Positions 1 to 32,784 of a stretch of 64,000 nt of DNA are shown here, piece after piece. Position numbers and translations under genes: made by a program. The stretch's first letter is position 1. Each line of letters begins with the position of its first letter. The notes under the pieces were generated by a model. The model was not told the origin of the DNA, did not search any database, and saw only the letters and a list, made by a program, of their open reading frames with translations. This DNA is from Escherichia coli (lineage in GTDB: Bacteria > Pseudomonadota > Gammaproteobacteria > Enterobacterales > Enterobacteriaceae). The stretch lies in NCBI RefSeq assembly GCF_030013595.1, contig NZ_CP122768.1, one strand, 5' to 3'.

Positions 1-689
1 TATCGCGCCTGTCCGGCCCCCTGCTCAGAGAAATAATGCTCAAGCAGTTGCACCATTGCGGAAAGTCCCTGACGAATCTGCCCATCAGAGAGATTTTGCG
101 GATGTGAGGATAACTCACGGGCGAGGAAATCGAGCTGGCGCGCGGTGACTTCCACATTAGGGACATTTGGCACCGTGCCGTTACGAATACGGCGCATAAA
201 ACGGGCATCACGCAAGCGCAGCACCGGCATTAAACGCACCAGATGGCGTGCCTGGTCGTTAATATCCTCGACATCAATCGGATGTCCGTCTTTATCGAGA
301 AAACTGCGCAGTGTCATCACGCTGCCGTCTTCCGCACTCTCCCCTTCCAGACGATAAAAAATACGGTGATAGCCATCGGTGCATGGCGTCCAGCACGCTT
401 CCAGCGGCCGATAGCGGCGAACCCGATGTCGGCCTGGCAGCGATTCGCGGAAGGTCAAAATAATATGCAGATGATGTTCTCGCCCGTTGATATCTCCCGG
501 CGGGAACCAGAAATCGTCGCGCTCAAAATGGTAGAGATCTGATTCTGGCGATAGCAGCAGGGTTAAGGCGTCCAGCAAGCTGGATTTACCCCACGCGTTC
601 TCCCCAATCAGGACGTTGTTTTGTTCCAGCATCAACGACAAACGGTTGATACCGCGAAAACCCACAATTTCAACGCGCTCAAGAATCAT
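1..689 (-). CDS. ybjD: YbjD, OLD-family ATP-dependent endonuclease-like protein; N-terminal part only, 3' end lies beyond the window start
   Basis: Reverse-complement translation from ATG at 687-689 reads MILERVEIVGFRGINRLSLMLEQNNVLIGENAWGKSSLLDALTLL (Walker A-like GKSS), matching remembered YbjD; synteny next to aqpZ. Confidence 0.85.
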   Translation of the reverse strand, partial: MILERVEIVGFRGINRLSLMLEQNNVLIGENAWGKSSLLDALTLLLSPESDLYHFERDDFWFPPGDINGREHHLHIILTFRESLPGRHRVRRYRPLEACWTPCTDGYHRIFYRLEGESAEDGSVMTLRSFLDKDGHPIDVEDINDQARHLVRLMPVLRLRDARFMRRIRNGTVPNVPNVEVTARQLDFLARELSSHPQNLSDGQIRQGLSAMVQLLEHYFSEQGAGQAR

Positions 690-1114
690 ATCCCCTCCAG
701 AAATATGTGACTTATCCTTTACGCTGGCAGTATAACGGGAAAGGCCATGCTAATACGTGATGACATCACATTTAAGCATGGCAAATGTCTGAAAAATGAG
801 CGAATAATCGCGTTATACTCCCTCTTGCTGATAAGCCTGCAAAAACAACAAAATCAAATAATTAGCATGATAAATTATTTTTTATTACGCCTAAAGGATT
901 AAATCTTTTGCTTGCACTACACTGTCAATCAGACAAATGACTATATGGGGCAACCCGCTGTTGCCCTAAATCAAATTTACTGGATTTATTTATCTGGTGA
1001 ATGACTCGCCTTCGTTTTTAAAATAGCCGCGCATTATTTCCGTCGTCACTTTTTTACGACGACCCTATAAAACGACCATATTTTTCACAGGGTCAATTTT
1101 TAATTGAGGTGGAT

Positions 1115-1810
1115 ATGTTCAGAAAATTAGCAGCTGAATGTTTTGGTACTTTCTGGCTTGTTTTTGGTGGCTGTGGTAGTGCCGTACTGGCCGCAGGCTT
1201 CCCGGAATTAGGCATTGGTTTTGCCGGCGTGGCGCTGGCATTCGGTCTGACCGTTCTGACGATGGCCTTTGCTGTTGGTCATATTTCTGGTGGTCATTTT
1301 AACCCGGCGGTCACTATTGGTTTATGGGCTGGCGGACGTTTCCCGGCAAAAGAAGTCGTTGGCTACGTAATTGCCCAGGTTGTCGGCGGTATTGTTGCGG
1401 CGGCGCTGCTGTATTTAATTGCCAGTGGTAAAACAGGTTTTGACGCGGCAGCCAGCGGTTTTGCTTCTAACGGTTATGGCGAGCATTCGCCAGGCGGTTA
1501 TTCCATGCTTTCCGCGCTGGTAGTTGAACTGGTATTGAGTGCAGGTTTCCTGCTGGTGATCCACGGCGCAACCGACAAATTCGCTCCTGCTGGTTTTGCG
1601 CCGATCGCTATTGGTCTGGCCTTAACCCTGATTCACTTAATCAGTATTCCGGTGACTAACACTTCTGTTAACCCGGCGCGCAGCACCGCGGTTGCTATCT
1701 TCCAGGGCGGCTGGGCATTAGAACAACTGTGGTTCTTCTGGGTGGTGCCAATTGTCGGCGGCATTATCGGTGGTCTGATTTACCGGACCCTGCTGGAAAA
1801 ACGTAATTAA
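1115..1810 (+). CDS. aqpZ: Aquaporin Z water channel
   Basis: ORF 1109..1810 reads [19 protein letters not shown]...NPA motifs; true ATG at 1115 with GAGGTGG SD at 1106-1112; 231 aa as in K-12. Confidence 0.97.
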
Positions 1811-1820
1811 TTAACGCAGA

Positions 1821-1848
1821 AGGCCTGGCGCAATGTCAGGCCTTTTTT
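1821..1848 (+). terminator. Rho-independent terminator of aqpZ (AGGCCTG stem, CAGGCCT partner, T-run)
   Basis: Inverted repeat aggcctg/caggcct followed by TTTTTT immediately after the aqpZ stop. Confidence 0.6.
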
Positions 1849-2293
1849 AAATATATTGATTCATCTTCCTGTTGCGCTCCTTGATGTGTTAAGCCACATA
1901 TAGTCACTGGCGCAGGGAGCGCGCAGGGGGCGGCCAATCGCCGCCGCCCCCTGCACCCCCGGGCTCTGGCGAACAAAATCGCCGCTGCGCGGTGCCCTCG
2001 ACTTATCCCTTGCGGCTACCGGGTCGGGCGCGAGGTAACATCCCTGTAAAACGCGCCCTCAGCCCACATCCATGTGGGCTGCCCCGGCCTTCAGGGAACG
2101 CCTCGGCGATTTTGACGCCACCAACACCGGTGCGGTTTGTAATTAAAGCGCAAGAATATCTTTAAATGAAAATGAATACCCTACCGATCCTTATGCATAA
2201 CATTTCCTTTTAATTGCAACTTTACTCGTCCTTCCGCTTTCAGTAGTGTGTCATCGCGCATTTCGACTTCATCTTTGCAAGGACTGGGTTTTC

Positions 2294-3193
2294 ATGTTTT
2301 CTGGGCTGTTAATCATTCTGGTTCCCCTGATTGTGGGTTACCTCATTCCTCTTCGCCAAAAAGCTGCATTAAGAGTTATTAATCAGCTATTAAGCTGGAT
2401 GGTTTACCTCATTCTCTTTTTTATGGGTATCAGTCTGGCGTTTCTCGATAACCTCGCCAGTAACCTGTTGGCGATTCTGCATTATTCCGCCGTCAGCATT
2501 ACCATTATTTTACTCTGCAATATTATTGCGTTGTTGTGGCTGGAGCGCGGTCTGCCGTGGCGCAACCACCACCAGCAAGAAAAACTCCCGTCGCGTATTG
2601 CGATGGCGCTGGAGTCGCTAAAACTGTGCGGCGTAGTAGTGATTGGTTTTGCCATTGGTCTGAGTGGACTGGCTTTCTTACAACACGCGACCGAAGCCAG
2701 TGAATACACCTTAATTCTGCTACTTTTCCTCGTCGGTATTCAGTTGCGCAATAATGGCATGACCTTAAAGCAGATTGTCCTTAATCGCCGAGGAATGATT
2801 GTCGCCGTGGTGGTGGTTGCCAGTTCATTAATTGGTGGTTTAATTAACGCCTTTATTCTTGATCTACCCATCAATACCGCGCTGGCAATGGCCTCCGGTT
2901 TCGGCTGGTATTCTCTTTCCGGTATTTTATTGACCGAATCTTTTGGTCCGGTAATCGGGAGCGCAGCGTTTTTTAATGATCTGGCCCGTGAGCTGATTGC
3001 TATTATGTTGATTCCTGGGCTGATTCGCCGCAGCCGCTCTACCGCACTGGGCTTATGCGGTGCGACGTCGATGGATTTCACCCTGCCCGTTCTTCAACGT
3101 ACTGGCGGGCTGGATATGGTCCCGGCGGCAATTGTTCACGGTTTTATTCTTAGCCTGTTAGTGCCGATCCTCATCGCCTTTTTCTCTGCATAA
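2294..3193 (+). CDS. lysO: Lysine exporter LysO (YbjE)
   Basis: ORF 2246..3193; internal Met at +48 gives MFSGLLIILVPLIVGYLIPLRQ..., 299 aa, matching YbjE. Confidence 0.95.
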   Translation: MFSGLLIILVPLIVGYLIPLRQKAALRVINQLLSWMVYLILFFMGISLAFLDNLASNLLAILHYSAVSITIILLCNIIALLWLERGLPWRNHHQQEKLPSRIAMALESLKLCGVVVIGFAIGLSGLAFLQHATEASEYTLILLLFLVGIQLRNNGMTLKQIVLNRRGMIVAVVVVASSLIGGLINAFILDLPINTALAMASGFGWYSLSGILLTESFGPVIGSAAFFNDLARELIAIMLIPGLIRRSRSTALGLCGATSMDFTLPVLQRTGGLDMVPAAIVHGFILSLLVPILIAFFSA

Positions 3194-3226
3194 TACCTCT
3201 CTGGCGGTAGATCCCTGCCGCCAAAA

Positions 3227-3240
3227 TTGCGCTAAATCAA
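3227..3240 (+). promoter_or_regulatory. Candidate FNR box (TTGCGctaaATCAA) upstream of hcp
   Basis: Matches FNR consensus TTGAT-N4-ATCAA in 8 of 10 positions, about 100 nt upstream of the hcp ATG; hcp-hcr is an FNR-activated operon (established knowledge). Confidence 0.45.
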
Positions 3241-3298
3241 TCTCCCTTAAAGTTGCATGAAAAATCCCTTTTATCCCCGCGTTAAGCGTCTTAACCTT

Positions 3299-3320
3299 AA
3301 ACATGTATATTAAATATAAC
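3299..3320 (+). promoter_or_regulatory. Candidate NsrR-type AT-rich inverted repeat (AACATGTATATTAAATATAAC) in the hcp promoter
   Basis: Imperfect AT-rich dyad between the FNR box and the hcp start; hcp is NsrR-repressed (established knowledge); match to the motif judged by eye only. Confidence 0.35.
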
Positions 3321-3336
3321 TTTAAAAGGTGTGATC

Positions 3337-4989
3337 ATGTTTTGTGTGCAATGTGAACAAACTATCCGTACTCCGGCAGGAAACGGCTGCTCATACGCGC
3401 AGGGGATGTGTGGTAAAACGGCGGAAACCTCTGACCTTCAGGATTTACTCATCGCGGCGCTGCAAGGGCTTTCGGCCTGGGCGGTAAAAGCGCGTGAATA
3501 CGGCATCATCAACCACGATGTAGACAGCTTTGCGCCACGCGCATTTTTCTCAACCCTGACCAACGTTAACTTCGATTCTCCGCGTATAGTCGGCTACGCT
3601 CGTGAAGCGATTGCCCTGCGCGAGGTGCTGAAAGCACAATGCTTGGCTGTAGATGCCAACGCGCGCGTCGATAACCCGATGGCTGACCTGCAACTGGTGA
3701 GCGATGATCTCGGCGAGCTGCAACGTCAGGCAGCAGAATTTACCCCTAACAAAGATAAAGCGGCGATTGGCGAAAACATTCTCGGCCTGCGTCTGCTGTG
3801 CCTGTATGGCCTGAAAGGTGCGGCGGCCTATATGGAACACGCGCATGTTCTCGGTCAATACGACAACGATATTTATGCCCAGTACCATAAAATCATGGCG
3901 TGGCTGGGGACCTGGCCTGCCGATATGAACGCGCTTCTTGAGTGTTCAATGGAAATCGGCCAGATGAACTTCAAAGTGATGAGCATTCTGGATGCAGGCG
4001 AAACCGGTAAATACGGTCACCCGACGCCAACCCAGGTCAACGTCAAAGCGACGGCGGGTAAATGCATTCTGATTTCCGGTCACGATCTCAAAGATCTCTA
4101 CAACCTGCTGGAACAGACCGAAGGCACGGGCGTTAATGTCTACACCCACGGCGAAATGCTGCCTGCGCATGGCTACCCGGAGCTGCGTAAATTCAAGCAT
4201 CTGGTCGGTAACTACGGCAGCGGCTGGCAGAATCAGCAAGTGGAGTTCGCTCGTTTCCCTGGCCCCATCGTGATGACCTCGAACTGCATCATCGACCCAA
4301 CCGTAGGCGCTTATGACGATCGTATCTGGACCCGCAGCATCGTTGGCTGGCCGGGTGTGCGTCATCTGGATGGCGAAGATTTCTCTGCGGTCATCGCCCA
4401 GGCGCAACAAATGGCGGGCTTCCCGTACAGCGAAATTCCGCACCTGATCACCGTGGGCTTTGGTCGTCAAACGCTGCTTGGCGCAGCGGATACGCTGATT
4501 GACCTGGTAAGCCGTGAAAAACTGCGTCATATCTTCCTGCTTGGCGGCTGTGACGGCGCACGCGGCGAGCGTCACTATTTCACCGATTTCGCCACCAGCG
4601 TGCCGGATGACTGTCTGATCCTGACTCTCGCCTGTGGTAAATATCGCTTTAACAAACTCGAGTTTGGCGATATCGAAGGTCTGCCGCGTCTGGTAGATGC
4701 TGGTCAGTGTAACGATGCTTACTCAGCGATTATTCTGGCGGTAACGCTGGCAGAAAAACTGGGCTGCGGTGTCAACGATCTGCCGCTGTCGCTGGTGCTC
4801 TCGTGGTTTGAACAGAAAGCGATTGTCATTCTGCTGACACTGCTTTCTCTGGGTGTGAAAAATATCGTCACCGGCCCGACTGCACCAGGTTTCCTGACAC
4901 CAGATCTGCTGGCGGTGCTGAACGAGAAATTCGGCCTGCGTTCTATCACCACTGTTGAAGAAGACATGAAGCAACTGTTGAGCGCGTAA
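3337..4989 (+). CDS. hcp: Hybrid-cluster protein (hydroxylamine/NO reductase)
   Basis: ORF 3331..4989; [29 protein letters not shown]-terminal Cys cluster; 550 aa from ATG 3337. Confidence 0.97.
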
Positions 4990-5000
4990 GGAGTTTGTCG

Positions 5001-5969
5001 ATGACGATGCCAATGAATCAATGCCCGTGGCGGATGCAGGTTCATCACATTACGCAAGAAACGCCAGATGTGTGGACGATTTCCCTGATTTGCCACGATT
5101 ACTACCCATATCGCGCCGGGCAATATGCACTGGTCAGCGTGCGAAACTCAGCGGAAACGCTGCGTGCTTACACCATTTCCTCCACGCCAGGCGTGAGTGA
5201 ATACATCACCCTGACTGTGCGGCGGATTGATGACGGTGTCGGCTCCCAGTGGCTGACGCGCGATGTAAAACGCGGTGATTATCTCTGGCTTTCGGACGCG
5301 ATGGGGGAATTTACCTGCGACGATAAAGCAGAAGATAAATTCCTGTTGCTGGCGGCAGGCTGCGGCGTCACGCCGATTATGTCGATGCGTCGCTGGCTGG
5401 CGAAGAACCGTCCGCAGGCCGATGTGCAGGTGATCTACAACGTGCGTTCGCCGCAGGATGTTATTTTCGCCGATGAGTGGCGCAACTATCCGGTGACGCT
5501 GGTGGCAGAAAATAACGTTACCGAAGGCTTTATCGCTGGTCGTCTCACTCGCGAACTGCTGGCAGGTGTCCCTGACTTAGCTTCACGTACCGTGATGACC
5601 TGCGGCCCGGCTCCGTATATGGATTGGGTAGAGCAGGAAGTGAAAGCGCTCGGCGTGACGCGTTTCTTTAAAGAGAAATTCTTCACCCCAGTAGCGGAAG
5701 CGGCGACCAGCGGTCTGAAATTCACCAAACTGCAACCGGCACGAGAATTTTACGCCCCGGTTGGCACCACGCTACTGGAGGCGCTGGAAAGCAATAACGT
5801 TCCGGTTGTCGCTGCCTGCCGTGCAGGTGTTTGCGGCTGCTGTAAGACGAAAGTGGTTTCCGGTGAATATACGGTGAGCAGCACAATGACGCTGACCGAC
5901 GCCGAAATCGCTGAAGGTTACGTACTGGCCTGCTCCTGCCATCCGCAGGGGGATTTGGTTCTCGCATAA
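5001..5969 (+). CDS. hcr: NADH oxidoreductase for Hcp (FAD/2Fe-2S)
   Basis: MTMPMNQCPWRMQVHHITQETPDVW...; C-terminal CRAGVCGCCK ferredoxin motif; AAGGAG SD 7 nt upstream of ATG 5001; 322 aa. Confidence 0.96.
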   Translation: MTMPMNQCPWRMQVHHITQETPDVWTISLICHDYYPYRAGQYALVSVRNSAETLRAYTISSTPGVSEYITLTVRRIDDGVGSQWLTRDVKRGDYLWLSDAMGEFTCDDKAEDKFLLLAAGCGVTPIMSMRRWLAKNRPQADVQVIYNVRSPQDVIFADEWRNYPVTLVAENNVTEGFIAGRLTRELLAGVPDLASRTVMTCGPAPYMDWVEQEVKALGVTRFFKEKFFTPVAEAATSGLKFTKLQPAREFYAPVGTTLLEALESNNVPVVAACRAGVCGCCKTKVVSGEYTVSSTMTLTDAEIAEGYVLACSCHPQGDLVLA

Positions 5970-5978
5970 TCGCCTTAT

Positions 5979-6004
5979 GCCCGATGATATTCCTTTCATC
6001 GGGC
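5979..6004 (+). terminator. Stem-loop after hcr (GCCCGATGA / TCATCGGGC), weak U-tract
   Basis: 9-bp inverted repeat directly after the hcr stop, followed by tattta. Confidence 0.45.
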
Positions 6005-6101
6005 TATTTAACCGTTAGTGCCTCCTTTTTCCCCCATCCCTTCCCCCTCCGTCAGATGAACTAAACTTGTTACCGTTATCACATTCAGGAGATGGAGAAC
6101 C

Positions 6102-7820
6102 ATGAAACAAACGGTTGCAGCTTATATCGCCAAAACACTCGAATCGGCAGGCGTGAAACGCATCTGGGGAGTCACGGGCGACTCTCTGAACGGTCTTAGT
6201 GACAGTCTTAATCGCATGGGCACCATCGAGTGGATGTCCACCCGCCATGAAGAAGTGGCGGCCTTTGCCGCTGGCGCTGAAGCACAACTTTCAGGAGAAC
6301 TGGCGGTCTGTGCCGGATCGTGCGGCCCCGGAAACCTGCACTTAATCAACGGCCTGTTTGATTGCCACCGCAATCACGTTCCGGTACTGGCGATTGCCGC
6401 TCATATTCCCTCCAGCGAAATTGGCAGCGGCTATTTCCAGGAAACCCACCCACAAGAGCTATTCCGCGAATGTAGTCACTATTGCGAGCTGGTTTCCAGC
6501 CCGGAGCAGATCCCACAAGTGCTGGCGATTGCCATGCGCAAAGCGGTGCTTAACCGTGGCGTTTCCGTTGTCGTGTTACCGGGCGACGTGGCGTTAAAAC
6601 CTGCGCCAGAAGGGGCAACCTCGCACTGGTATCATGCGCCACAGCCAGTCGTGACGCCGGAAGAAGAAGAGTTACGCAAACTGGCGCAACTGCTGCGTTA
6701 TTCCAGCAATATCGCCCTGATGTGTGGCAGCGGCTGCGCGGGGGCGCATAAAGAGTTAGTTGAGTTTGCCGGGAAAATTAAAGCGCCTATTGTTCATGCC
6801 CTGCGCGGTAAAGAACATGTCGAATACGATAATCCGTATGATGTCGGAATGACGGGATTAATTGGCTTCTCGTCAGGTTTCCATACCATGATGAACGCCG
6901 ACACGTTAGTGCTACTCGGCACGCAATTTCCCTACCGCGCCTTCTACCCGACCGATGCCAAAATCATTCAGATTGATATCAACCCAGCCAGCATCGGCGC
7001 TCACAGCAAGGTGGATATGGCACTGGTCGGCGATATCAAGTCGACTCTGCGTGCATTGCTTCCACTGGTGGAAGAAAAAGCCGATCGCAAGTTTCTGGAT
7101 AAAGCGCTGGAAGATTACCGCGACGCCCGCAAAGGGCTGGACGATTTAGCTAAACCGAGCGAGAAAGCCATTCACCCGCAATATCTGGCGCAGCAAATTA
7201 GTCATTTTGCCGCCGATGACGCCATCTTTACCTGTGACGTTGGTACGCCAACGGTGTGGGCGGCACGTTATCTGAAAATGAACGGCAAGCGTCGTCTGTT
7301 AGGTTCGTTTAACCACGGTTCGATGGCTAACGCCATGCCGCAGGCGCTGGGTGCTCAGGCAACCGAGCCGGAACGTCAGGTGGTCGCCATGTGCGGCGAT
7401 GGCGGTTTTAGCATGTTGATGGGCGATTTCCTCTCAGTAGTGCAGATGAAACTGCCGGTGAAAATTATCGTCTTTAATAACAGCGTGCTGGGCTTTGTGG
7501 CGATGGAGATGAAAGCTGGTGGCTATTTGACTGACGGCACCGAACTACATGACACCAACTTTGCCCGCATTGCCGAAGCGTGCGGAATTACGGGTATTCG
7601 CGTGGAAAAAGCCTCTGAAGTCGATGAAGCCCTGCAACGCGCCTTCTCCATCGACGGTCCGGTGCTGGTGGATGTGGTGGTCGCCAAAGAAGAGTTAGCC
7701 ATTCCACCGCAGATCAAACTCGAACAGGCCAAAGGTTTCAGCCTGTATATGTTGCGCGCAATCATCAGCGGACGCGGTGATGAAGTGATCGAACTGGCGA
7801 AAACAAACTGGCTAAGGTAA
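6102..7820 (+). CDS. poxB: Pyruvate oxidase (ubiquinone-dependent), TPP/FAD enzyme
   Basis: 572-aa [37 protein letters not shown]..., full-length match to PoxB. Confidence 0.97.
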
Positions 7821-7856
7821 AAAGGGTGGCATTTCCCGTCATAATAAGGACATGCC

Positions 7857-8858
7857 ATGATTGATTTACGCAGTGATACCGTTACCCGACCGAGCCGCGC
7901 CATGCTCGAAGCGATGATGGCCGCCCCGGTTGGGGACGACGTTTACGGAGACGACCCTACCGTTAATGCTTTGCAGGACTATGCGGCAGAGCTTTCCGGT
8001 AAAGAAGCCGCCATTTTTCTGCCTACCGGCACTCAGGCCAACCTGGTCGCTCTGCTCAGTCACTGCGAACGCGGCGAAGAGTATATTGTCGGTCAGGCCG
8101 CGCATAACTATCTGTTTGAAGCCGGTGGCGCAGCGGTGCTGGGCAGTATTCAGCCGCAACCCATCGACGCGGCTGCCGACGGCACGCTACCGCTGGATAA
8201 AGTGGCGATGAAAATCAAACCCGACGATATCCATTTCGCCCGCACCAAATTACTCAGTCTGGAAAACACCCACAACGGCAAAGTGCTGCCGCGGGAATAC
8301 CTGAAAGAAGCATGGGAATTTACTCGCGAGCGCAATCTGGCGCTGCATGTTGACGGTGCACGCATCTTTAATGCCGTGGTGGCTTACGGCTGCGAACTGA
8401 AAGAGATCACGCAATATTGTGATTCGTTCACCATTTGCCTGTCGAAAGGTCTTGGGACGCCAGTCGGTTCATTACTCCTCGGTAATCGTGATTACATTAA
8501 ACGCGCCATCCGCTGGCGGAAAATGACCGGCGGCGGGATGCGCCAGTCCGGCATTCTGGCTGCCGCCGGGATGTATGCCCTGAAAAATAACGTCGCGCGC
8601 TTACAGGAAGACCACGACAACGCCGACTGGATGGCGGAGCAGTTGCGTGAAGCAGGCGCGGATGTGATGCGTCAGGACACCAATATGCTGTTTGTTCGCG
8701 TCGGGGAAGAAAATGCTGCCGCGTTAGGCGAATACATGAAAGCGAGAAACGTGCTGATTAACGCCTCGCCGATTGTCCGCCTGGTGACCCATCTTGACGT
8801 CTCGCGTGCACAACTGGCGGAAGTCGCCGCCCACTGGCGCGCATTCCTGGCGCGTTAA
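7857..8858 (+). CDS. ltaE: Low-specificity L-threonine aldolase
   Basis: 333-aa [43 protein letters not shown]... Confidence 0.97.
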
Positions 8859-8868
8859 GGAGGGAGAC

Positions 8869-10299
8869 GTGCCGCAACGCATTTTAGTTCTCGGTGCCAG
8901 TGGCTACATTGGTCAGCATCTGGTGCGCACACTCAGCCAGCAGGGGCATCAGATCCTGGCGGCGGCACGTCATGTCGACAGGCTTGCAAAGCTGCAACTG
9001 GCAAACGTCAGTTGCCATAAAGTCGATCTCAGCTGGCCGGATAACCTTCCGGCCCTGTTACAGGATATCGATACCGTCTATTTTCTGGTGCACAGCATGG
9101 GCGAAAGCGGCGATTTTATCGCTCAGGAGCGCCAGGTGGCTCTCAACGTCCGCGATGCGCTACGTAAAGTCCCAGTTAAGCAATTAATCTTTCTCAGTTC
9201 GTTACAGGCCCCGCCACATGAGCAGTCGGACCATCTGCGTGCTCGTCAGGCTACGGCGGACATTCTTCGTGAAGCGGGTGTCCCGGTGACCGAATTGCGT
9301 GCCGGAATAATCGTTGGTGCAGGTTCAGCGGCGTTCGAGGTCATGCGCGATATGGTCTACAACCTGCCAGTGTTAACGCCGCCGCGCTGGGTCCGTTCAC
9401 GCACCACGCCCATCGCGCTGGAAAACTTGCTGCACTATCTGGTGGCGCTGTTAGATCATCCGGCCTGCGAACATCGCATCTTCGAAGCCGCCGGACCAGA
9501 AGTGCTCAGTTATCAGCAACAGTTTGAACATTTTATGGCGGTGAGCGGTAAGCGCCGCTGGTTGATCCCCATCCCCTTTCCGACCCGCTGGATTTCGGTG
9601 TGGTTTCTCAATGTGATTACTTCCGTACCGCCCACCACCGCCAAAGCGTTGATTCAGGGGCTGAAACACGATCTGCTGGCAGATGACACCGCGTTACGTG
9701 CACTCATCCCACAACGGCTGATTGCTTTCGATGACGCGGTACGTCGCACCCTGAAAGAGGAAGAAAAGCTGGTCAACTCCAGCGACTGGGGATACGACGC
9801 TCAGGCATTTGCCCGCTGGCGACCGGAGTACGGTTATTTCGCCAAACAGGCGGGGTTTACCGTTAAAACGTCCGCCAGCCTTGCGGCTTTATGGCAGGTG
9901 GTGAATCAAATCGGCGGTAAAGAGCGTTATTTCTTTGGCAATATTTTGTGGCAAACCCGGGCGTTGATGGACCGCGCGATCGGTCATAAGCTGGCGAAAG
10001 GCCGCCCGGAGCGTGAATATTTGCAGACCGGCGATGCGGTGGATAGCTGGAAAGTGATTGTCGTTGAACCGGAAAAACAACTTACGCTGTTATTTGGCAT
10101 GAAAGCGCCGGGGCTGGGACGACTGTGTTTTACCCTGGAAGATAAAGGCGACTATCATACTATCGATGTTCGCGCATTCTGGCATCCGCACGGTATGCCG
10201 GGGCTGTTTTACTGGTTATTGATGATCCCCGCGCATCTGTTTATTTTTCGCGGAATGGCAAAACAAATCGCCAGACTGGCAGAACAAAGCACAGATTAA
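8869..10299 (+). CDS. ybjT: YbjT, NAD(P)-binding epimerase/dehydratase-family protein with C-terminal DUF2867
   Basis: ORF track 8794..10299; the likely start is GTG 8869 (gives [17 protein letters not shown], 476 aa) with AAGGAGGG SD at 8858-8865; the longer track ORF would overlap ltaE. Confidence 0.9.
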
Positions 10300-10397
10300 T
10301 CGACAAAACCTGCGTTATTCTTTCATGTTTCCCATTGCATCATGGGGGAAATCACGGAAGAATGCGCACGTCATTTTCTCAACAACAGTGGATTGAT

Positions 10398-11411
10398 ATG
10401 AAGGTACTGGTTACCGGCGCCACCAGCGGCTTAGGTCGAAACGCGGTAGAGTTTTTATGCCAGAAAGGCATCAGCGTGCGAGCGACCGGTCGCAACGAGG
10501 CAATGGGTAAATTGCTGGAAAAAATGGGCGCAGAGTTTGTTCCGGCGGATCTGACCGAGCTGGTCTCATCACAAGCTAAAGTGATGCTCGCGGGCATTGA
10601 TACGCTGTGGCACTGCTCCAGCTTTACCTCGCCCTGGGGGACACAACAGGCTTTCGATCTGGCTAACGTTCGCGCCACTCGCCGCCTGGGTGAATGGGCT
10701 GTCGCCTGGGGTGTGCGTAACTTTATTCATATCTCTTCCCCCTCCCTGTACTTCGATTATCACCACCATCGCGATATTAAAGAAGATTTTCGCCCTCACC
10801 GCTTCGCTAACGAGTTTGCCCGTAGCAAAGCAGCCAGCGAAGAAGTGATCAATATGCTTTCGCAGGCGAATCCACAAACGCGCTTTACTATTCTGCGCCC
10901 ACAAAGTCTGTTCGGACCGCACGATAAAGTCTTTATCCCCCGTCTGGCGCATATGATGCACCACTACGGCAGCATTCTGTTACCGCACGGCGGCAGTGCG
11001 CTGGTCGATATGACCTACTATGAAAATGCCGTGCACGCCATGTGGCTGGCAAGCCAGGAAGCCTGCGATAAGCTACCTTCCGGGCGTGTGTACAACATCA
11101 CCAACGGCGAACATCGCACACTGCGCAGCATCGTGCAGAAGCTAATCGACGAGTTGAATATTGACTGTCGTATTCGTTCCGTCCCCTACCCGATGCTGGA
11201 TATGATCGCCCGCAGCATGGAGCGTTTAGGCCGCAAGTCAGCAAAAGAGCCGCCGCTGACCCACTACGGCGTCTCCAAGTTGAATTTTGACTTTACGCTG
11301 GATATTACGCGTGCGCAGGAAGAGTTAGGTTATCAACCAGTCCTCACCCTGGATGAAGGTATCGAGAAAACTGCCGCCTGGCTACGCGACCACGGAAAAC
11401 TGCCGCGCTAA
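10398..11411 (+). CDS. ybjS: YbjS, NAD(P)-dependent epimerase/dehydratase-family protein
   Basis: ORF 10335..11411; internal ATG 10398 gives [20 protein letters not shown] (Rossmann GxxGxxG), 337 aa. Confidence 0.92.
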
Positions 11412-12238
11412 TCCTGCCCGTATTTCTCCAGCAACGCTTCGGCAATCGCCTGAGTTTCTGCATCCGCTTCGCCGTTGTATAACGTCGGGCGGAAATGCAT
11501 CTGGAACGCCATAATCACGCGCCGCTGCTCGCGCGGTGTCATATCAGGTTTAACGTCATAACCGTAGCGCGCCAAAAGCTCCAGCAATGACGCGGTATCT
11601 ACCGGTGTGTGCGGCGCGCGCCCGGCAAGGTAAAAGTTCACCCGCTGCGCATCCGGCCAGGCACCAATCCCCTGCTGCGCCAGTTGTTGCCAGGGGAATA
11701 ACGGCCCCGGATCGTCTTTGCGCTGCGGCGCAATATCCGCATGTGCCACTACGTTTTCCGGCTTGATGTGATAACGGGCAATAATATCTTTCGCCAGCGG
11801 AATAAGCGCCTGAATCTGTGCCTGTTCAAACGGGGCAAAATATTTCACTCCGGCTGATTTCTGCCAGCCACGGTTTTCCAGCTCAATGCCAATAGAGGTG
11901 TCGTTAAGGCGCGTTGCCCCGCGCCAGGCGCTAATCCCCGCATGCCAGGCCAGTTCTTCTTCCGGCACCAGTTGCCAGATGCGCGGTTTACCGTTGTATC
12001 GCGGTGGTACCGCAGGGACCAGATAATGCGAGCTGACCTGCTTATCGGTCAGTGTCGCCAGCGAGCTATCAAAATCATCTGCGGTGTAGTGGATCACCAG
12101 CACTTTAATGCGAGGATACGCCGCCTGCGCCTGGCGTCGGGTATCAAGCTGATATCCCTCTTTCTCGACAATGCCTTTTTCGCCTGCACACCCTGCCAGT
12201 AACAGAGCGGCGGCGACCAGCCAGAAGACTCTTCTCAT
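11408..12238 (-). CDS. amiD: N-acetylmuramoyl-L-alanine amidase AmiD (lipoprotein)
   Basis: 276-aa [22 protein letters not shown] (lipobox); 4-bp overlap with the ybjQ stop. Confidence 0.95.
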
Positions 12239-26536: not shown

Positions 26537-27439
26537 CTAACCACCCGTTTTCAGGCAATATTCTGTCGTAGCGTGGCGTTCGATCCAGCGGATCATTTTA
26601 CCCGCGATGTCGATACCGGTGGTTTTTTCTATTCCTTCCAGCCCCGGCGACGCATTCACTTCCATCACCAACGGCCCGCGATTAGCACGCAAAATATCTA
26701 CACCAGCAACGTCCAGCGCCATCGTTCGCGCGGCTTTTATCGCGATTTCACGCTCCTGTGGTGTGATACTGGCGACGCTTGCCGCGCCGCCACGATGCAA
26801 ATTGGAACGAAAATCGCCCTCTTTCGCCCGCCGTTCAATCGCCGCGACCACTTCATCGCCAACAACCAGACAGCGGATATCGCACCCTTGCGCCTCTTTG
26901 ATATATTCCTGCACCAGAATATGCGCGTTCAGACCGCGGAAAGCGTCAATCACGCTTTCGGCCGCCTGACGCGTCTCCGCCAGCACGACGCCAATTCCCT
27001 GCGTGCCTTCAACCAGCTTGACCACCAGCGGCGCACCACCGACCATGTCGATTAAATCGCTGGTATCATCCGGCGAATGCGCAATGCCCGTGACAGGCAG
27101 GTCGATGCCCTGACGCGCCAGCAGTTGCATGGAACGCAATTTGTCACGCGCCCGGGCAATGGCGACCGACTCATTGAGCGGATAGCTCCCCAGCATCTCG
27201 AACTGGCGCAGTGCCGCCGTCCCATAAAAGGTAATGGCGGTGCCAATACGCGGGATCACTGCGTCAAAATGGGGTAACTTGCGGCCTTTGTAGTGAATAG
27301 AAGACGCCGCAGGATTTATGTTCATGTAGCAAGAAAGCGGATCAAGAATTTCAACCAGGTGACCGCGCTGTATAGCGGCTTCACGCAGCCGCTTACACGA
27401 ATAGAGCGTTCCATCCCGGGACAATATGGCAATTTTCAC
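26537..27439 (-). CDS. rimK: Ribosomal protein S6 glutamate ligase RimK (ATP-grasp)
   Basis: 300-aa [37 protein letters not shown]... Confidence 0.96.
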
Positions 27440-27909
27440 CCTGCACCTCTCTGTCAGACCTGGTCAAAAGCCCGCGTATCATACATCGGCGTGGCGGTTT
27501 TAGCGCGTTGCCCAACCCTGTTTGTGCAAATAATCCAGAATAAATGGGCGGCTTTCTTTAATGATTGTTCGGCGGATATGATCGCTCCAGGTATCCCGGC
27601 GATTATTGCTGCCACGGGTGAGGTAATATTCCGCCAGTTGCTCGTCATACTGCGCCAGTTCGTCTTTATCCAGCGGTTGATAGCTGTTTTCATGCACCAA
27701 AATGGAGGCCGGTAAACGCGGCTTAAGATCTGGATTATCCGCAGGCCAGCCAAGGCACAGCCCAAACAGCGGCAGAACATGCTGCGGTAATTTCAGCAGC
27801 TCCGTCACCGCTTCAATATTATTGCGCAGGCCGCCGATATATACCCCGCCCAATCCCAGCGATTCCGCTGAGGTTAACGCATTCTGCGCCATCATTGCCG
27901 TATCAACGA

Positions 27910-27918
27910 CACCGAGCA
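27910..27918. repeat. IS10 target-site duplication, left copy (CACCGAGCA)
   Basis: Identical 9-mer directly flanks both IS10 termini; IS10/Tn10 makes 9-bp duplications. Confidence 0.85.
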
Positions 27919-27931
27919 CTGAGAGATCCCC

Positions 27932-29140
27932 TCATAATTTCCCCAAAACGTAACCATGTGTGAATAGATTTTGAGTAAGCAGGGTTGCAGCCACGAGTGA
28001 GTCTTCCCTTGTTATTGTGTAGCCAGAATGCCGCAAAACTTCCATGCCTAAGCGAACTGTTGAGAGTACGTTTCGATTTCTGACTGTGTTAGCCTGGAAG
28101 TGCTTGTCCCAACCTTGTTTCTGAGCATGAACGCCCGCAAGCCAACATGTTAGTTGAAGCATCAGGGCGATTAGCAGCATGATATCAAAACGCTCTGAGC
28201 TGCTCGTTCGGCTATGGCGTAGGCCTAGTCCGTAGGCAGGACTTTTCAAGTCTCGGAAGGTTTCTTCAATCTGCATTCGCTTCGAATAGATATTAACAAG
28301 TTGTTTGGGTGTTCGAATTTCAACAGGTAAGTTAGTTGCTAGAATCCATGGCTCCTTTGCCGACGCTGAGTAGATTTTAGGTGACGGGTGGTGACAATGA
28401 GTCCGTGTCGAGCGCTGATTTTTTCGGCCTTTAGAGCGAGATTTATACAATAGAATTTGGCATGAGATTGGATTGCTTTTAGTCAGCCTCTTATAGCCTA
28501 AAGTCTTTGAGTGACTAGATGACATATCATGTAAGTTGCTGATAGGTTTCCAGTTTTCCGCTCCTAGGTCTGCATATTGTACTTTTCCTCTTACTCGACT
28601 TAACCAGTACCAACCCAGCTTCTCAACGGATTTATACCATGGCACTTTAAAGCCAGCATCACTGACAATGAGCGGTGTGGTGTTACTCGGTAGAATGCTC
28701 GCAAGGTCGGCTAGAAATTGGTCATGAGCTTTCTTTGAACATTGCTCTGAAAGCGGGAACGCTTTCTCATAAAGAGTAACAGAACGACCGTGTAGTGCGA
28801 CTGAAGCTCGCAATACCATAAGCCGTTTTTGCTCACGGATATCAGACCAGTCAACAAGTACAATGGGCATCGTATTGCCCGAACAGATAAAGCTAGCATG
28901 CCAACGGTATACAGCGAGTCGCTCTTTGTGGAGGTGACGATTACCTAACAATCGGTCGATTCGTTTGATGTTATGTTTTGTTCTCGCTTTGGTTGGCAGG
29001 TTACGGCCAAGTTCGGTAAGAGTGAGAGTTTTACAGTCAAGTAAGGCGTGGCAAGCCAACGTTAAGCTGTTGAGTCGTTTTAAGTGTAATTCGGGGCAGA
29101 ATTGGTAAAGAGAGTCGTGTAAAATATCGAGTTCGCACAT
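27932..29140 (-). CDS. IS10 transposase
   Basis: 402-aa ORF MCELDILHDSLYQFCPELHLKRLNSLTLACHALLDCKTLTLTELGRNLPTKARTKHNIKRIDRLLGNRHLHKERLAVYRWH..., matches the remembered Tn10/IS10 transposase across its length. Confidence 0.97.
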   Translation of the reverse strand: MCELDILHDSLYQFCPELHLKRLNSLTLACHALLDCKTLTLTELGRNLPTKARTKHNIKRIDRLLGNRHLHKERLAVYRWHASFICSGNTMPIVLVDWSDIREQKRLMVLRASVALHGRSVTLYEKAFPLSEQCSKKAHDQFLADLASILPSNTTPLIVSDAGFKVPWYKSVEKLGWYWLSRVRGKVQYADLGAENWKPISNLHDMSSSHSKTLGYKRLTKSNPISCQILLYKSRSKGRKNQRSTRTHCHHPSPKIYSASAKEPWILATNLPVEIRTPKQLVNIYSKRMQIEETFRDLKSPAYGLGLRHSRTSSSERFDIMLLIALMLQLTCWLAGVHAQKQGWDKHFQANTVRNRNVLSTVRLGMEVLRHSGYTITREDSLVAATLLTQNLFTHGYVLGKL

Positions 29141-29201
29141 TTTGTTGTCTGATTATTGATTTTTGGCGAAACCATTTGATCATATGACAAGATGTGTATC
29201 T
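29133..29201 (+). ncRNA. IS10 RNA-OUT antisense RNA (pOUT transcript), position inferred from the IS10 map
   Basis: Established IS10 biology places pOUT about 115 bp inside the outside end, reading outward across the transposase start at 29138-29140; coordinates come from the known map, not from a motif search. Confidence 0.5.
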
Positions 29202-29247
29202 ACCTTAACTTAATGATTTTGATAAAAATCATTAGGGGATTCATCAG

Positions 29248-29256
29248 CACCGAGCA
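29248..29256. repeat. IS10 target-site duplication, right copy (CACCGAGCA)
   Basis: Identical to 27910..27918. Confidence 0.85.
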
Positions 29257-29543
29257 ACAGTTGTTCCGCCAGGCCAAGTTGTGCATCCGGACAGATCTGT
29301 AAATGGCGGTTAAAGTCGGCACAGAACACCCAGAACTCCGCCGCTTGCGCTACGTGTTTTTGCCCGCCGGTCAGCGTCACCAGTTCATCACGTAACGCTT
29401 TGTCGGTAATGCGAATAATGCTACTGCACTGCAAAAAACTGGAACTGGACGTCGCACGGGCGCTGTTAATAATCGCCTCACGCTGCGCTTCGGAAATGGG
29501 TTCATCAGTGAAATGGCGAATGGAGCGATGGCCACAAATAAGT

Positions 29544-29831
29544 TCAATGGTTGGCGTCATTATCTTTTTCTCTTTCTGAACGTGAATATTGCGGTGGACG
29601 GTTCATCAGCTGTGGGGCAAGACGTTTTGCCACCTGAAGAATAACCACCACCGCAGCGGGAAGCATGAGCAAAACACCGAGAAAAATCATCAGAATCTGC
29701 ACTTCTGGCCGAGAAAATGGCTCAGGCAGCGACAGGGAGCCGCTTACCGACAGCAGCGCCACCGCCAGCAACATCATTCCGATAAATTCCAGTATCAACA
29801 CGCTTTTAGGCAATTTACCGATCGCGCGCAT
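29544..29831 (-). CDS. ybjC: YbjC inner-membrane protein (DUF1418)
   Basis: 95-aa ORF MRAIGKLPKSVLILEFIGMMLLAVALLSVSG... Confidence 0.93.
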   Translation of the reverse strand: MRAIGKLPKSVLILEFIGMMLLAVALLSVSGSLSLPEPFSRPEVQILMIFLGVLLMLPAAVVVILQVAKRLAPQLMNRPPQYSRSEREKDNDANH

Positions 29832-29990
29832 ACGCTTCCCTCTGCAAAGTGAGCCTTCAGTCTAAAACTTTTCACTGTATTGTGTTTAACAGTTATAGCT
29901 TTTAGCAATTAATGCAACAGGTTAAACCTACTTTCAGCGAATAAATTTTAGCGTGATCATTACAGGCATAAATCTATGAGGAGAGAAATA

Positions 29991-30248
29991 ATGCAAACCG
30001 TTATTTTTGGTCGTCCGGGTTGCCCTTACTGTGTGCGTGCAAAAGATCTGGCTGAGAAATTGAGCAATGAACGCGATGATTTTCAGTATCAGTATGTTGA
30101 TATTCGTGCGGAAGGGATCACTAAAGAAGATCTACAACAAAAGGCAGGTAAACCCGTAGAAACCGTGCCGCAGATTTTTGTCGATCAGCAACATATCGGC
30201 GGCTATACCGATTTTGCTGCATGGGTGAAAGAGAATCTGGACGCCTGA
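29991..30248 (+). CDS. grxA: Glutaredoxin 1
   Basis: ORF 29976..30248; ATG 29991 gives MQTVIFGRPGCPYCVRAKDLAEKL with the CPYC active site, 85 aa. Confidence 0.96.
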   Translation: MQTVIFGRPGCPYCVRAKDLAEKLSNERDDFQYQYVDIRAEGITKEDLQQKAGKPVETVPQIFVDQQHIGGYTDFAAWVKENLDA

Positions 30249-30277
30249 TCGTCTGACAAGCCCTCGCGTTGAGGGCT

Positions 30278-30655
30278 TTATTGATTTTTTCTGTGCTGTG
30301 GTTTAAACAAACTACTGATAAATAAGAAACACAGTGCCCCCAGCGCACACCAGAACACCGCACTCAATAACCATGCCAGCTCTTGCCAGAATGAGCGCGT
30401 CGGTGAAAAAAACAGCCGCATAATAAGCATTGAACAGGGTGCCGCCAGCATTGCGCCAAACAGAGGTTTCAGGACTTCTCTACGCTGTGAAAAGAAGCTG
30501 GCAACTGCTCCAGGAAGAATGAAAAACAGCAAGCCGATTTCAGGATGCCCGGCAGCCCGAAAAGCGCCTTTCATGTGCGTCGCCAGAAAAAGGCACACCA
30601 CAATGAAGAGGACAAAACAGCAGATTGCCCCCGCCCAACGTTGTTTATGTTTCAC
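30278..30655 (-). CDS. ybjM: YbjM inner-membrane protein
   Basis: 125-aa ORF MKHKQRWAGAICCFVLFIVVCLFLATHMKG... Confidence 0.92.
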   Translation of the reverse strand: MKHKQRWAGAICCFVLFIVVCLFLATHMKGAFRAAGHPEIGLLFFILPGAVASFFSQRREVLKPLFGAMLAAPCSMLIMRLFFSPTRSFWQELAWLLSAVFWCALGALCFLFISSLFKPQHRKNQ

Positions 30656-32686: not shown

Positions 32687-32765
32687 GCCACTGCTTTTCT
32701 TTGATGTCCCCATTTTGTGGAGCCCATCAACCCCGCCATTTCGGTTCAAGGTTGGTGGGTTTTTT
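32687..32765 (+). ncRNA. rybB: RybB small RNA (sigma-E-dependent, Hfq-binding regulator of outer-membrane protein mRNAs)
   Basis: GCCACTGCTTTTCTTTGATGTCCCCATTTTGTGGAGCCCATCAACCCCGCCATTTCGGTTCAAGGTTGGTGGGTTTTTT matches remembered RybB including the 3' hairpin and U-tail; lies in the ybjL-rcdA intergenic region as in K-12. Confidence 0.85.
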
Positions 32766-32784
32766 GTTATCTAAAACTTATCTA

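What the first reader, a model, noticed from the sequence alone, without database searches (positions are those of the whole stretch)
29133..29991. IS10 outward promoter pOUT is oriented toward ybjC (antisense) and grxA (sense)
The IS10 outside end is at 29247, so pOUT (established IS10 biology) fires rightward on the plus strand out of the element. Such transcripts would run antisense through the 5' remnant of nfsA and through ybjC (both minus strand) and could reach grxA (plus strand, start 29991, about 745 bp downstream). I see no obvious intrinsic terminator in between. IS10 pOUT read-out activation of adjacent genes is documented; whether it happens here is inference.
Basis: inference. 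Interest (0 to 1): 0.3.

Follow-up and report, generated by a model that had tools for sequence, protein, structure and literature searches.

The report
IS10 in nfsA, pOUT facing grxA
A standard IS10 insertion sequence has knocked out the nitrofuran-activating gene nfsA in this E. coli, and its known outward promoter does point toward ybjC and grxA as described. Nothing indicates that this orientation matters, so the finding is ordinary.

Summary
A complete 1329-bp IS10 lies at 27919..29247, flanked by a 9-bp duplication (CACCGAGCA). Its outside end is at 29247. RNA-OUT (Rfam RF00240, 97.3 bits) lies at 29133..29202 on the + strand, so pOUT fires rightward. That direction is antisense to the nfsA 5' remnant and ybjC, and sense to grxA, which starts at 29991, 744 bp past the IS end. 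Two scans found no credible intrinsic terminator in between.

The functional inference is weak.
- pOUT's main product is the ~70-nt RNA-OUT.
- Read-out would be an untranslated antisense RNA.
- That RNA must cross an unstructured, C-rich, G-poor tract (29712..29913) just before grxA, which looks like a Rho loading site.
- It would also meet transcription from the ybjC promoter head-on.
- grxA keeps its own OxyR-type promoter region.
- Documented pOUT activations have IS10 at the promoter or 5'UTR, not 744 bp away.

Among 5,426 complete E. coli genomes, IS10 interrupts nfsA in 12 records, at four target sites. With the window, that makes about 6 independent events in this orientation and 4 in the opposite one, so there is no bias. 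The closest relative of this strain has deleted nfsA outright. The most likely selected effect is nfsA loss (nitrofuran resistance), which is known biology.

The parts
27919..29247 (-). Complete IS10 (IS4 family; RefSeq name 'ISVsa5 family'), 1329 bp. Inside end at 27919, outside end at 29247.
   Evidence: Ends and length. Identical (0 differences) to the IS10 copies in APEC O2-211, MB53 and 700462. RefSeq annotation of homologous loci.
27910..27918 (.). Left copy of the 9-bp target-site duplication CACCGAGCA.
29248..29256 (.). Right copy of the 9-bp target-site duplication CACCGAGCA.
27932..29140 (-). IS10 transposase ORF, 402 aa, intact.
   Evidence: NF033591 IS4-family transposase, 402 bits.
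29120..29125 (+). TAAAAT hexamer 7 nt upstream of the RNA-OUT 5' end, read as the pOUT -10 element.
   Evidence: Visible directly in the sequence. The simple sigma-70 scan did not call it because no -35 hexamer reaches 4 of 6 at a spacing of 16-18 nt. IS10 positions 108-202 from the outside end are identical between the IS10 variants compared.
29133..29202 (+). RNA-OUT, the IS10 antisense RNA transcribed from pOUT.
   Evidence: Rfam RF00240, 97.3 bits, full-length match 1-70. Folds at -21.3 kcal/mol, z = -4.0.
29209..29236 (+). A/U-only 12-bp hairpin in the IS10 outside-end region. No U tract follows it, so it is not terminator-like.
   Evidence: -12.5 kcal/mol.
29248..29560 (-). nfsA 5' remnant (nfsA nt 1-313).
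   Evidence: RefSeq pseudogene annotation at the same site in strain 88.0502.
27500..27918 (-). nfsA 3' remnant.
29544..29831 (-). ybjC (DUF1418, 95 aa), first gene of the ybjC-nfsA-rimK-ybjN operon.
   Evidence: NF007883, 206.7 bits. Operon statement from PMC6375286.
29712..29913 (+). C-rich, G-poor, unstructured tract on the pOUT read-out strand. Candidate Rho utilisation (rut) region.
   Evidence: C/G ratio of at least 1.3 throughout. Maximum 2.36 at 29765-29842 (26 C, 11 G), in the top ~1.5% of windows. Fold z = +1.16 with a nearly unpaired centroid.
29895..29931 (+). OxyR-type binding motif upstream of grxA, in the gene's native promoter region.
   Evidence: The only match in 64 kb at up to 3 mismatches; 0.07 expected by chance.
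29991..30248 (+). grxA (glutaredoxin 1, 85 aa).
   Evidence: NF008401, 165 bits. RefSeq annotation of homologous loci.
30258..30278 (+). Intrinsic terminator after grxA. This is the first convincing + strand terminator downstream of pOUT.
   Evidence: -14 to -17.5 kcal/mol, followed by a U tract.

Best explanation
This is a simple IS10 insertion that inactivates nfsA, the main nitrofuran-activating nitroreductase. It is a loss-of-function allele of the type associated with nitrofurantoin and furazolidone resistance. It is also expected to be polar on rimK-ybjN.

Inside the element, pOUT (start at 29133, + strand) mainly makes the ~70-nt RNA-OUT, which represses transposase translation. A minority of pOUT transcripts probably leave the outside end and run antisense into the nfsA remnant. 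Because they are untranslated, they are expected to be ended by Rho, or by collision with ybjC-promoter transcription, before or within the C-rich tract at 29712..29913.

Any contribution to grxA expression is therefore expected to be small next to grxA's own OxyR-controlled promoter. The orientation of the element is incidental.

Shown here: the anatomy, the RNA-OUT identity, the absence of an intrinsic terminator, the rut-like composition, and the lack of orientation bias in nature. Inferred: Rho termination, the low level of read-out, and the lack of effect on grxA.
For: - Anatomy.
- RNA-OUT is a 69-nt species ending at IS10 nt 47 (PMC5006887).
- Outward transcription is about 10% of lacUV5, and pOUT transcripts end at several sites (PMC9330008; PMC11774165; both citing Simons 1983).
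- All three + frames after 29133 hit stop codons quickly. The C/G ratio peaks at 2.36 in 29765-29842, and that tract is unstructured.
- An OxyR-type site is retained at 29895..29931.
- Survey of 5,426 genomes: 12 records carry IS10 in nfsA at four 9-bp targets (nfsA nt 313, 284, 165, 80). Three of those targets are used in both orientations. Counting the window, independent events number about 6 with pOUT toward grxA and 4 with pOUT toward rimK. No IS10 lies in the ybjC-grxA spacer.
- The nearest relative (99.9% identical) lost nfsA through a microhomology deletion instead. This points to nfsA loss itself as the selected trait.
- IS interruption of nfsA and nfsB is an established route to nitrofurantoin resistance (PMC8767348).
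Against: - There is no intrinsic terminator between pOUT and grxA, so read-through is physically possible.
- pOUT read-out does activate adjacent genes in other settings: otsBA (PMC2744996) and acrEF and cat.
- Rho termination is predicted from base composition only.
- No expression data were available.
- A 6:4 split from 10 events cannot exclude a modest orientation preference.
Confidence: 0.72

Rival explanations
1. pOUT read-through transcripts cross the nfsA remnant, ybjC and the intergenic region, and reach grxA. They add a constitutive, OxyR-independent component to grxA expression.
For: The orientation is correct and grxA is on the same strand. No intrinsic terminator lies in the 744 bp. 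pOUT read-out activation is documented elsewhere.
Against: Most pOUT product is the short RNA-OUT. The path is long and untranslated, with a rut-like tract directly upstream of grxA. It runs head-on into the ybjC promoter. Documented activations have IS10 at the promoter or 5'UTR. There is no orientation bias (6:4), and no IS10 lies next to grxA in 5,426 genomes.
Confidence: 0.12
2. pOUT read-out acts mainly as an antisense RNA or convergent-transcription brake on ybjC and on the truncated ybjC-nfsA' message. It lowers ybjC expression without reaching grxA.
For: pOUT and the ybjC promoter are convergent and about 740 bp apart. The first ~580 nt after the IS end are complementary to the ybjC-nfsA' mRNA. 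IS-borne Pout antisense regulation of a neighbouring gene has been shown for IS481 and fim2 in Bordetella (PMC11774165).
Against: The level of read-out is unknown and probably low. A weaker C-rich stretch (29315..29405, C/G ~1.5) could already stop transcripts before ybjC. ybjC has no known phenotype. In the opposite orientation the same targets are used about as often, so no selection is visible.
Confidence: 0.25
3. The insertion is selectively neutral. It is a recent hop into an IS10 hotspot, and neither nfsA loss nor pOUT read-out has any consequence.
For: The target resembles the IS10 consensus half-site. The same 9-bp site was hit independently three times: in the window, in O111:H11 88.0502 and in SEV1/4. 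That pattern fits target preference.
Against: nfsA disruption is a well-established first step to nitrofuran resistance. Four different sites within one 723-bp gene were hit in 12 records. The closest relative carries an independent nfsA deletion. Together these suggest selection on nfsA loss.
Confidence: 0.15

Closest known systems
IS10 / IS10-right of Tn10 (IS4 family) with its pIN, pOUT and RNA-OUT antisense control
   Same: Length of 1329 bp, outside and inside end sequences, 9-bp target duplication, a 402-aa transposase, and a full-length RNA-OUT match at the expected distance (nt 115 to 46) from the outside end.
   Different: Six outside-end positions (nt 24, 25, 27, 47, 83, 107) differ from the copy in strains 88.0502, E94 and SEV4. 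One of them turns a G-C pair in the RNA-OUT stem into G-U. The same variant is present in identical form in APEC O2-211, MB53 and 700462.
Documented pOUT read-out activation: otsBA in rpoS-null E. coli (PMC2744996), acrEF in Salmonella, cat in pSU vectors
   Same: The same promoter, with the same outward orientation toward a co-oriented gene.
   Different: In the otsBA case IS10 sits in the 5' leader, tens of bp from the start codon, and every independent isolate had the same orientation. The acrEF and cat cases are cited as insertions just upstream of the gene. Here IS10 is 744 bp away with a convergent gene in between, and natural alleles show both orientations.
IS-mediated inactivation of nfsA/nfsB in nitrofuran-resistant E. 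coli (IS1 in nfsA, an IS10R-like element in nfsB; PMC8767348)
   Same: An IS with 9-bp direct repeats interrupts a nitroreductase gene.
   Different: The paper read here describes IS10R-like insertion in nfsB, and Tn10 in nfsA from earlier work. A simple IS10 in nfsA at nt 313 is seen in RefSeq genomes (88.0502, 88-19539, SEV1/4) rather than in that paper.
IS481 Pout-driven antisense RNA Rfi2 against fim2 in Bordetella pertussis (PMC11774165)
   Same: An IS outward promoter without a strong terminator produces read-through antisense RNA over a neighbouring, oppositely oriented gene.
   Different: That case has experimental support (Northern blots, phenotype). Here the antisense effect on ybjC is only a possibility.

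Membership tests
IS10 (IS4 family insertion sequence) | Element of 1329 bp with imperfect terminal inverted repeats (outside end CTGATGAATCCCC..., inside end CTGAGAGATCCCC...). | tested here: met
   The two ends share 17 of their first 30 bases.
IS10 (IS4 family insertion sequence) | 9-bp target-site duplication. | tested here: met
   CACCGAGCA on both sides. Removing the IS and one copy restores intact nfsA.
IS10 (IS4 family insertion sequence) | Single intact IS4-family DDE transposase ORF. | tested here: met
   402 aa; NF033591 at 402 bits against a cutoff of 152.
RNA-OUT (Rfam RF00240) | Sequence and structure match above the gathering score, on the strand opposite the transposase 5' end. 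| tested here: met
   97.3 bits against 41, model positions 1-70 of 70, + strand 29133..29202. Stable stem-loop, z = -4.0.
RNA-OUT (Rfam RF00240) | Actually transcribed from pOUT and able to repress transposase translation. | not testable with these tools
   Needs a Northern blot or RNA-seq.
pOUT read-out activation of an adjacent gene | pOUT oriented toward a gene on the same strand. | tested here: met
   pOUT is on the + strand and so is grxA.
pOUT read-out activation of an adjacent gene | No transcription terminator between pOUT and the gene. | tested here: inconclusive
   No intrinsic terminator. However, an unstructured C-rich, G-poor rut-like tract lies at 29712..29913 on an untranslated RNA.
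pOUT read-out activation of an adjacent gene | IS10 inserted immediately upstream of the activated gene, in its promoter or 5'UTR, as in the documented cases. | tested here: not met
   The IS end is 744 bp from the grxA ATG, with ybjC (convergent) and the native grxA promoter in between. For comparison, the otsBA insertion is at +12/+13.
pOUT read-out activation of an adjacent gene | Independent insertions share the activating orientation, which is the signature of selection for activation. | tested here: not met
   About 6 events toward grxA and 4 toward rimK. Three of the four targets are used in both orientations.
pOUT read-out activation of an adjacent gene | Raised transcript or protein level of the adjacent gene that depends on pOUT. 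| not testable with these tools
   No expression data are available.
nfsA loss-of-function (nitrofuran resistance) allele | The nfsA reading frame is disrupted. | tested here: met
   The ORF is split after nt 313. The remnants are 29248..29560 and 27500..27918.
nfsA loss-of-function (nitrofuran resistance) allele | Raised nitrofuran MIC. | not testable with these tools
   Phenotype is unknown. The literature links IS disruption of nfsA and nfsB to resistance.

The most novel reading that the evidence does not exclude
pOUT read-through escapes Rho and yields a transcript of about 1.1 kb. That transcript both silences ybjC by antisense pairing and gives grxA a constitutive, OxyR-independent boost. 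The IS10 insertion would then confer a redox-protection benefit on top of nfsA loss, making it a two-for-one adaptive allele under nitrofuran or oxidative stress.
Probability: 0.06. Interest if true: 0.4.

Novelty: already known. Interest (0 to 1): 0.12.

Why it matters
The practical content is that this strain carries an nfsA-null allele. That is a first-step ("pre-resistance") mutation toward nitrofurantoin or furazolidone resistance. IS10 repeatedly hits the same four 9-bp targets in nfsA in unrelated E. coli from livestock, poultry and humans.

The pOUT-toward-grxA layout is a textbook consequence of IS10 orientation. If read-out did reach grxA, it would be a modest example of long-range IS promoter read-out, but the comparative evidence gives no sign that it is selected.

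Tried and rejected
- **Sigma-70 consensus scan.** It did not call pOUT itself, because no -35 hexamer reaches 4 of 6 at the right spacing. Promoter identity therefore rests on the RNA-OUT match and on identity to IS10, not on the scan. The one + strand promoter-like hit at 29446..29473 is native nfsA sequence and is at chance level (2 found, 2.3 expected).
- **Hybrid promoter at the IS junction.** An outside-end -35 paired with a flanking -10 would require a -10-like hexamer 16-18 bp past TTCATC (29240-29245). None is there, judged by reading.
- **Weak hairpin plus U-run at 29519..29577 as a terminator.** Rejected because its fold z-score is +0.42.
- **A second IS10 copy or composite Tn10 in the window.** None was found.
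- **Primary papers.** Wang & Roth 1988, Ciampi 1982, Martinez-Garcia 2003 and Olliver 2005 are not held in the library. Statements about them come from citing papers or from my own knowledge.
- **Strain identity.** The window's own genome is not in the RefSeq complete-genome set. The best match is 99.9%, to strains that carry a deletion instead of the IS.

Full report
**What is in the sequence**

Reading 27700..30400 and the ORF list shows a 1329-bp element at 27919..29247.
- Its left end is CTGAGAGATCCCCTCATAA..., the IS10 inside end.
- Its right end is the reverse complement of CTGATGAATCCCCTAATGA..., the IS10 outside end.
- It is flanked by a perfect 9-bp duplication, CACCGAGCA (27910-18 and 29248-56).
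- It carries one intact 402-aa ORF on the minus strand (27932..29140), which scores 402 bits against the IS4-family transposase model NF033591.
- Deleting the element and one duplicate in silico restores a full 240-aa NfsA (NF008033 at 436 bits).
- There is no second IS10 copy in the window, so this is a lone IS10 and not Tn10.

To the right lie three features.
- The nfsA 5' remnant is at 29248..29560 on the minus strand.
- ybjC is at 29544..29831 on the minus strand (NF007883 at 207 bits).
- grxA is at 29991..30248 on the plus strand (NF008401 at 165 bits).

RefSeq annotation of homologous loci agrees with all of this.

**pOUT and RNA-OUT**

Rfam finds a full-length RNA-OUT (RF00240, 97.3 bits against a gathering score of 41) at 29133..29202 on the + strand. 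It folds into the expected long stem-loop (-21.3 kcal/mol, z = -4.0).

A TAAAAT hexamer sits at 29120-29125. The simple sigma-70 scan does not call it, because no good -35 lies at the right spacing. Promoter identity therefore rests on sequence identity to IS10. Positions 108-202 from the outside end are invariant among the IS10 variants compared.

The window's copy differs from the copy in 88.0502, E94 and SEV4 at outside-end nt 24, 25, 27, 47, 83 and 107. The last of these makes a G-U pair in the RNA-OUT stem. It is identical to the copies in APEC O2-211, MB53 and 700462.

**Is the path to grxA open?**

The consensus scan and a permissive ViennaRNA hairpin-plus-U scan find no credible + strand intrinsic terminator between 29203 and 29990. 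The first convincing one is at 30258..30278, after grxA. The best intermediate candidate, at 29519..29577, folds no better than shuffled sequence (z = +0.42).

The read-out RNA would be untranslated, since all three frames stop quickly. It would also have to cross 29712..29913, where the C/G ratio stays at or above 1.3 and peaks at 2.36 (26 C and 11 G in 78 nt). That peak is in the top ~1.5% of all 78-nt windows on either strand of this 64-kb sequence. The tract is essentially unstructured (z = +1.16, centroid nearly unpaired). This is the composition expected of a Rho loading site.

It is my own knowledge, not a tool result, that Rho suppresses untranslated antisense transcription in E. coli and that Tn10 read-out was reported to be Rho-sensitive (Wang & Roth 1988). 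That paper could not be read here.

**What the literature held here says**

- RNA-OUT is a 69-nt species that ends at IS10 nt 47 (PMC5006887).
- pOUT lacks a strong terminator and gives several read-through products (PMC11774165 citing Simons 1983).
- Outward transcription is about 10% of lacUV5 (PMC9330008).
- The proven activation read here, otsBA, has IS10 at +12/+13, with every isolate in the activating orientation (PMC2744996). acrEF and cat are cited as insertions just upstream of the gene.
- nfsA is co-transcribed with ybjC from the SoxS-regulated ybjC promoter (PMC6375286). pOUT and the ybjC promoter are therefore convergent.
- grxA keeps its own upstream region, including the only OxyR-type motif in the window, at 29895..29931 (0.07 expected by chance).

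**Comparative test of selection on orientation**

I searched 5,426 complete E. coli genomes with the region. I then used two synthetic queries, made of the IS10 outside-end 300 bp in either orientation joined to the repaired rimK-nfsA-ybjC-grxA locus. Twelve records have IS10 in nfsA, and none has IS10 in the ybjC-grxA spacer.

Exact junctions show four target sites.

| nfsA nt | Target sequence | pOUT toward grxA | pOUT toward rimK |
|---|---|---|---|
| 313 | CACCGAGCA | window; 88.0502 / 88-19539 | SEV1 / SEV4 |
| 284 | AGCTGAGCA | APEC O2-211; TUM1880 | 700462; EC1722-1 |
| 165 | CGCTTTGTC | MB53 | none |
| 80 | CGCTGCGCT | E92 / E94 | EC21Z-014 |

Flank SNPs and IS variants were used to merge clonal pairs. 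That leaves about 6 independent events with pOUT toward grxA and 4 with pOUT toward rimK. There is no orientation bias, which contrasts with otsBA. The recurrent hits in one 723-bp gene fit selection for nfsA loss, and IS disruption of nfsA and nfsB is an established nitrofurantoin-resistance route (PMC8767348).

**Nearest relative**

The best-matching genomes (HCP5S3_I2 and LCP30S3_I5, from pigs in the UK; 99.9% identical) have no IS10 here. Instead they carry a deletion corresponding to window 27398..29737. It removes the rimK start, all of nfsA and most of ybjC, and is bounded by a 10-bp microhomology, AGCCGCTTAC. This is a second, independent nfsA-null allele in the same lineage. It again points to nfsA loss, not pOUT output, as the trait that matters.

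**Verdict**

The layout allows read-out, and some antisense RNA over the nfsA remnant, and perhaps ybjC, is plausible.

A functional effect on grxA is unlikely (about 0.1), for five reasons:
- RNA-OUT is the dominant pOUT product.
- The distance is long.
- The path carries a rut-like tract.
- The ybjC promoter is convergent.
- Natural alleles show no orientation bias.

Everything here belongs to known IS10 and nfsA biology. Interest is low.

Noticed in passing
window 27398..29737, compared with L010 (NZ_CM149870.1 3443500-3449500): The closest complete genomes (HCP5S3_I2 and LCP30S3_I5, 99.9% identical) lack the IS10. They carry a deletion of the rimK start, all of nfsA and most of ybjC, bounded by a 10-bp microhomology (AGCCGCTTAC). 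This is a second, independent nfsA-null allele in the same lineage.
   Followed up: yes
window 27919..28250 (IS10 inside end) and 26537..27918: The IS10 inside end faces the nfsA 3' remnant, rimK and ybjN. The inside-end outward promoters pIII and OUTIIp (IS10 nt ~1000-1230 according to PMC11481808) would fire leftward, in the sense direction of rimK. They might partly offset the polarity of the insertion.
   Followed up: partly
window 29133..29870, minus strand: Transcription from the SoxS-regulated ybjC promoter now runs through the nfsA remnant into the IS10 outside end, in the sense direction of the transposase ORF. From my own knowledge, IS10 is reported to be protected against such external read-in. 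This was not tested here.
   Followed up: no
nfsA targets in L001-L009 and the window (nfsA nt 313, 284, 165, 80): IS10 has hit the same four 9-bp targets in nfsA repeatedly in unrelated E. coli from cattle, poultry, pigs and humans. Three of the four targets are used in both orientations. The nt 284 site, AGCTGAGCA, is a perfect IS10 consensus.
   Followed up: yes
window 29133..29247: This IS10 copy carries an outside-end variant (nt 24, 25, 27, 47, 83, 107) relative to the copy in 88.0502, E94 and SEV4. RNA-OUT nt 9 is U instead of C, which gives a G-U pair in the stem. Identical copies occur in APEC O2-211, MB53 and 700462.
   Followed up: partly
window 29895..29931: An OxyR-type tetranucleotide-repeat motif lies upstream of grxA. 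It is the only match in the 64-kb window.
   Followed up: yes
window 32690..32768 (+): RybB small RNA (Rfam RF00110, 104 bits).
   Followed up: no
window 16745..16895 and 19093..19243: A 151-nt direct repeat at 74% identity, with copies 2348 bp apart. It is probably a pair of paralogous genes.
   Followed up: no
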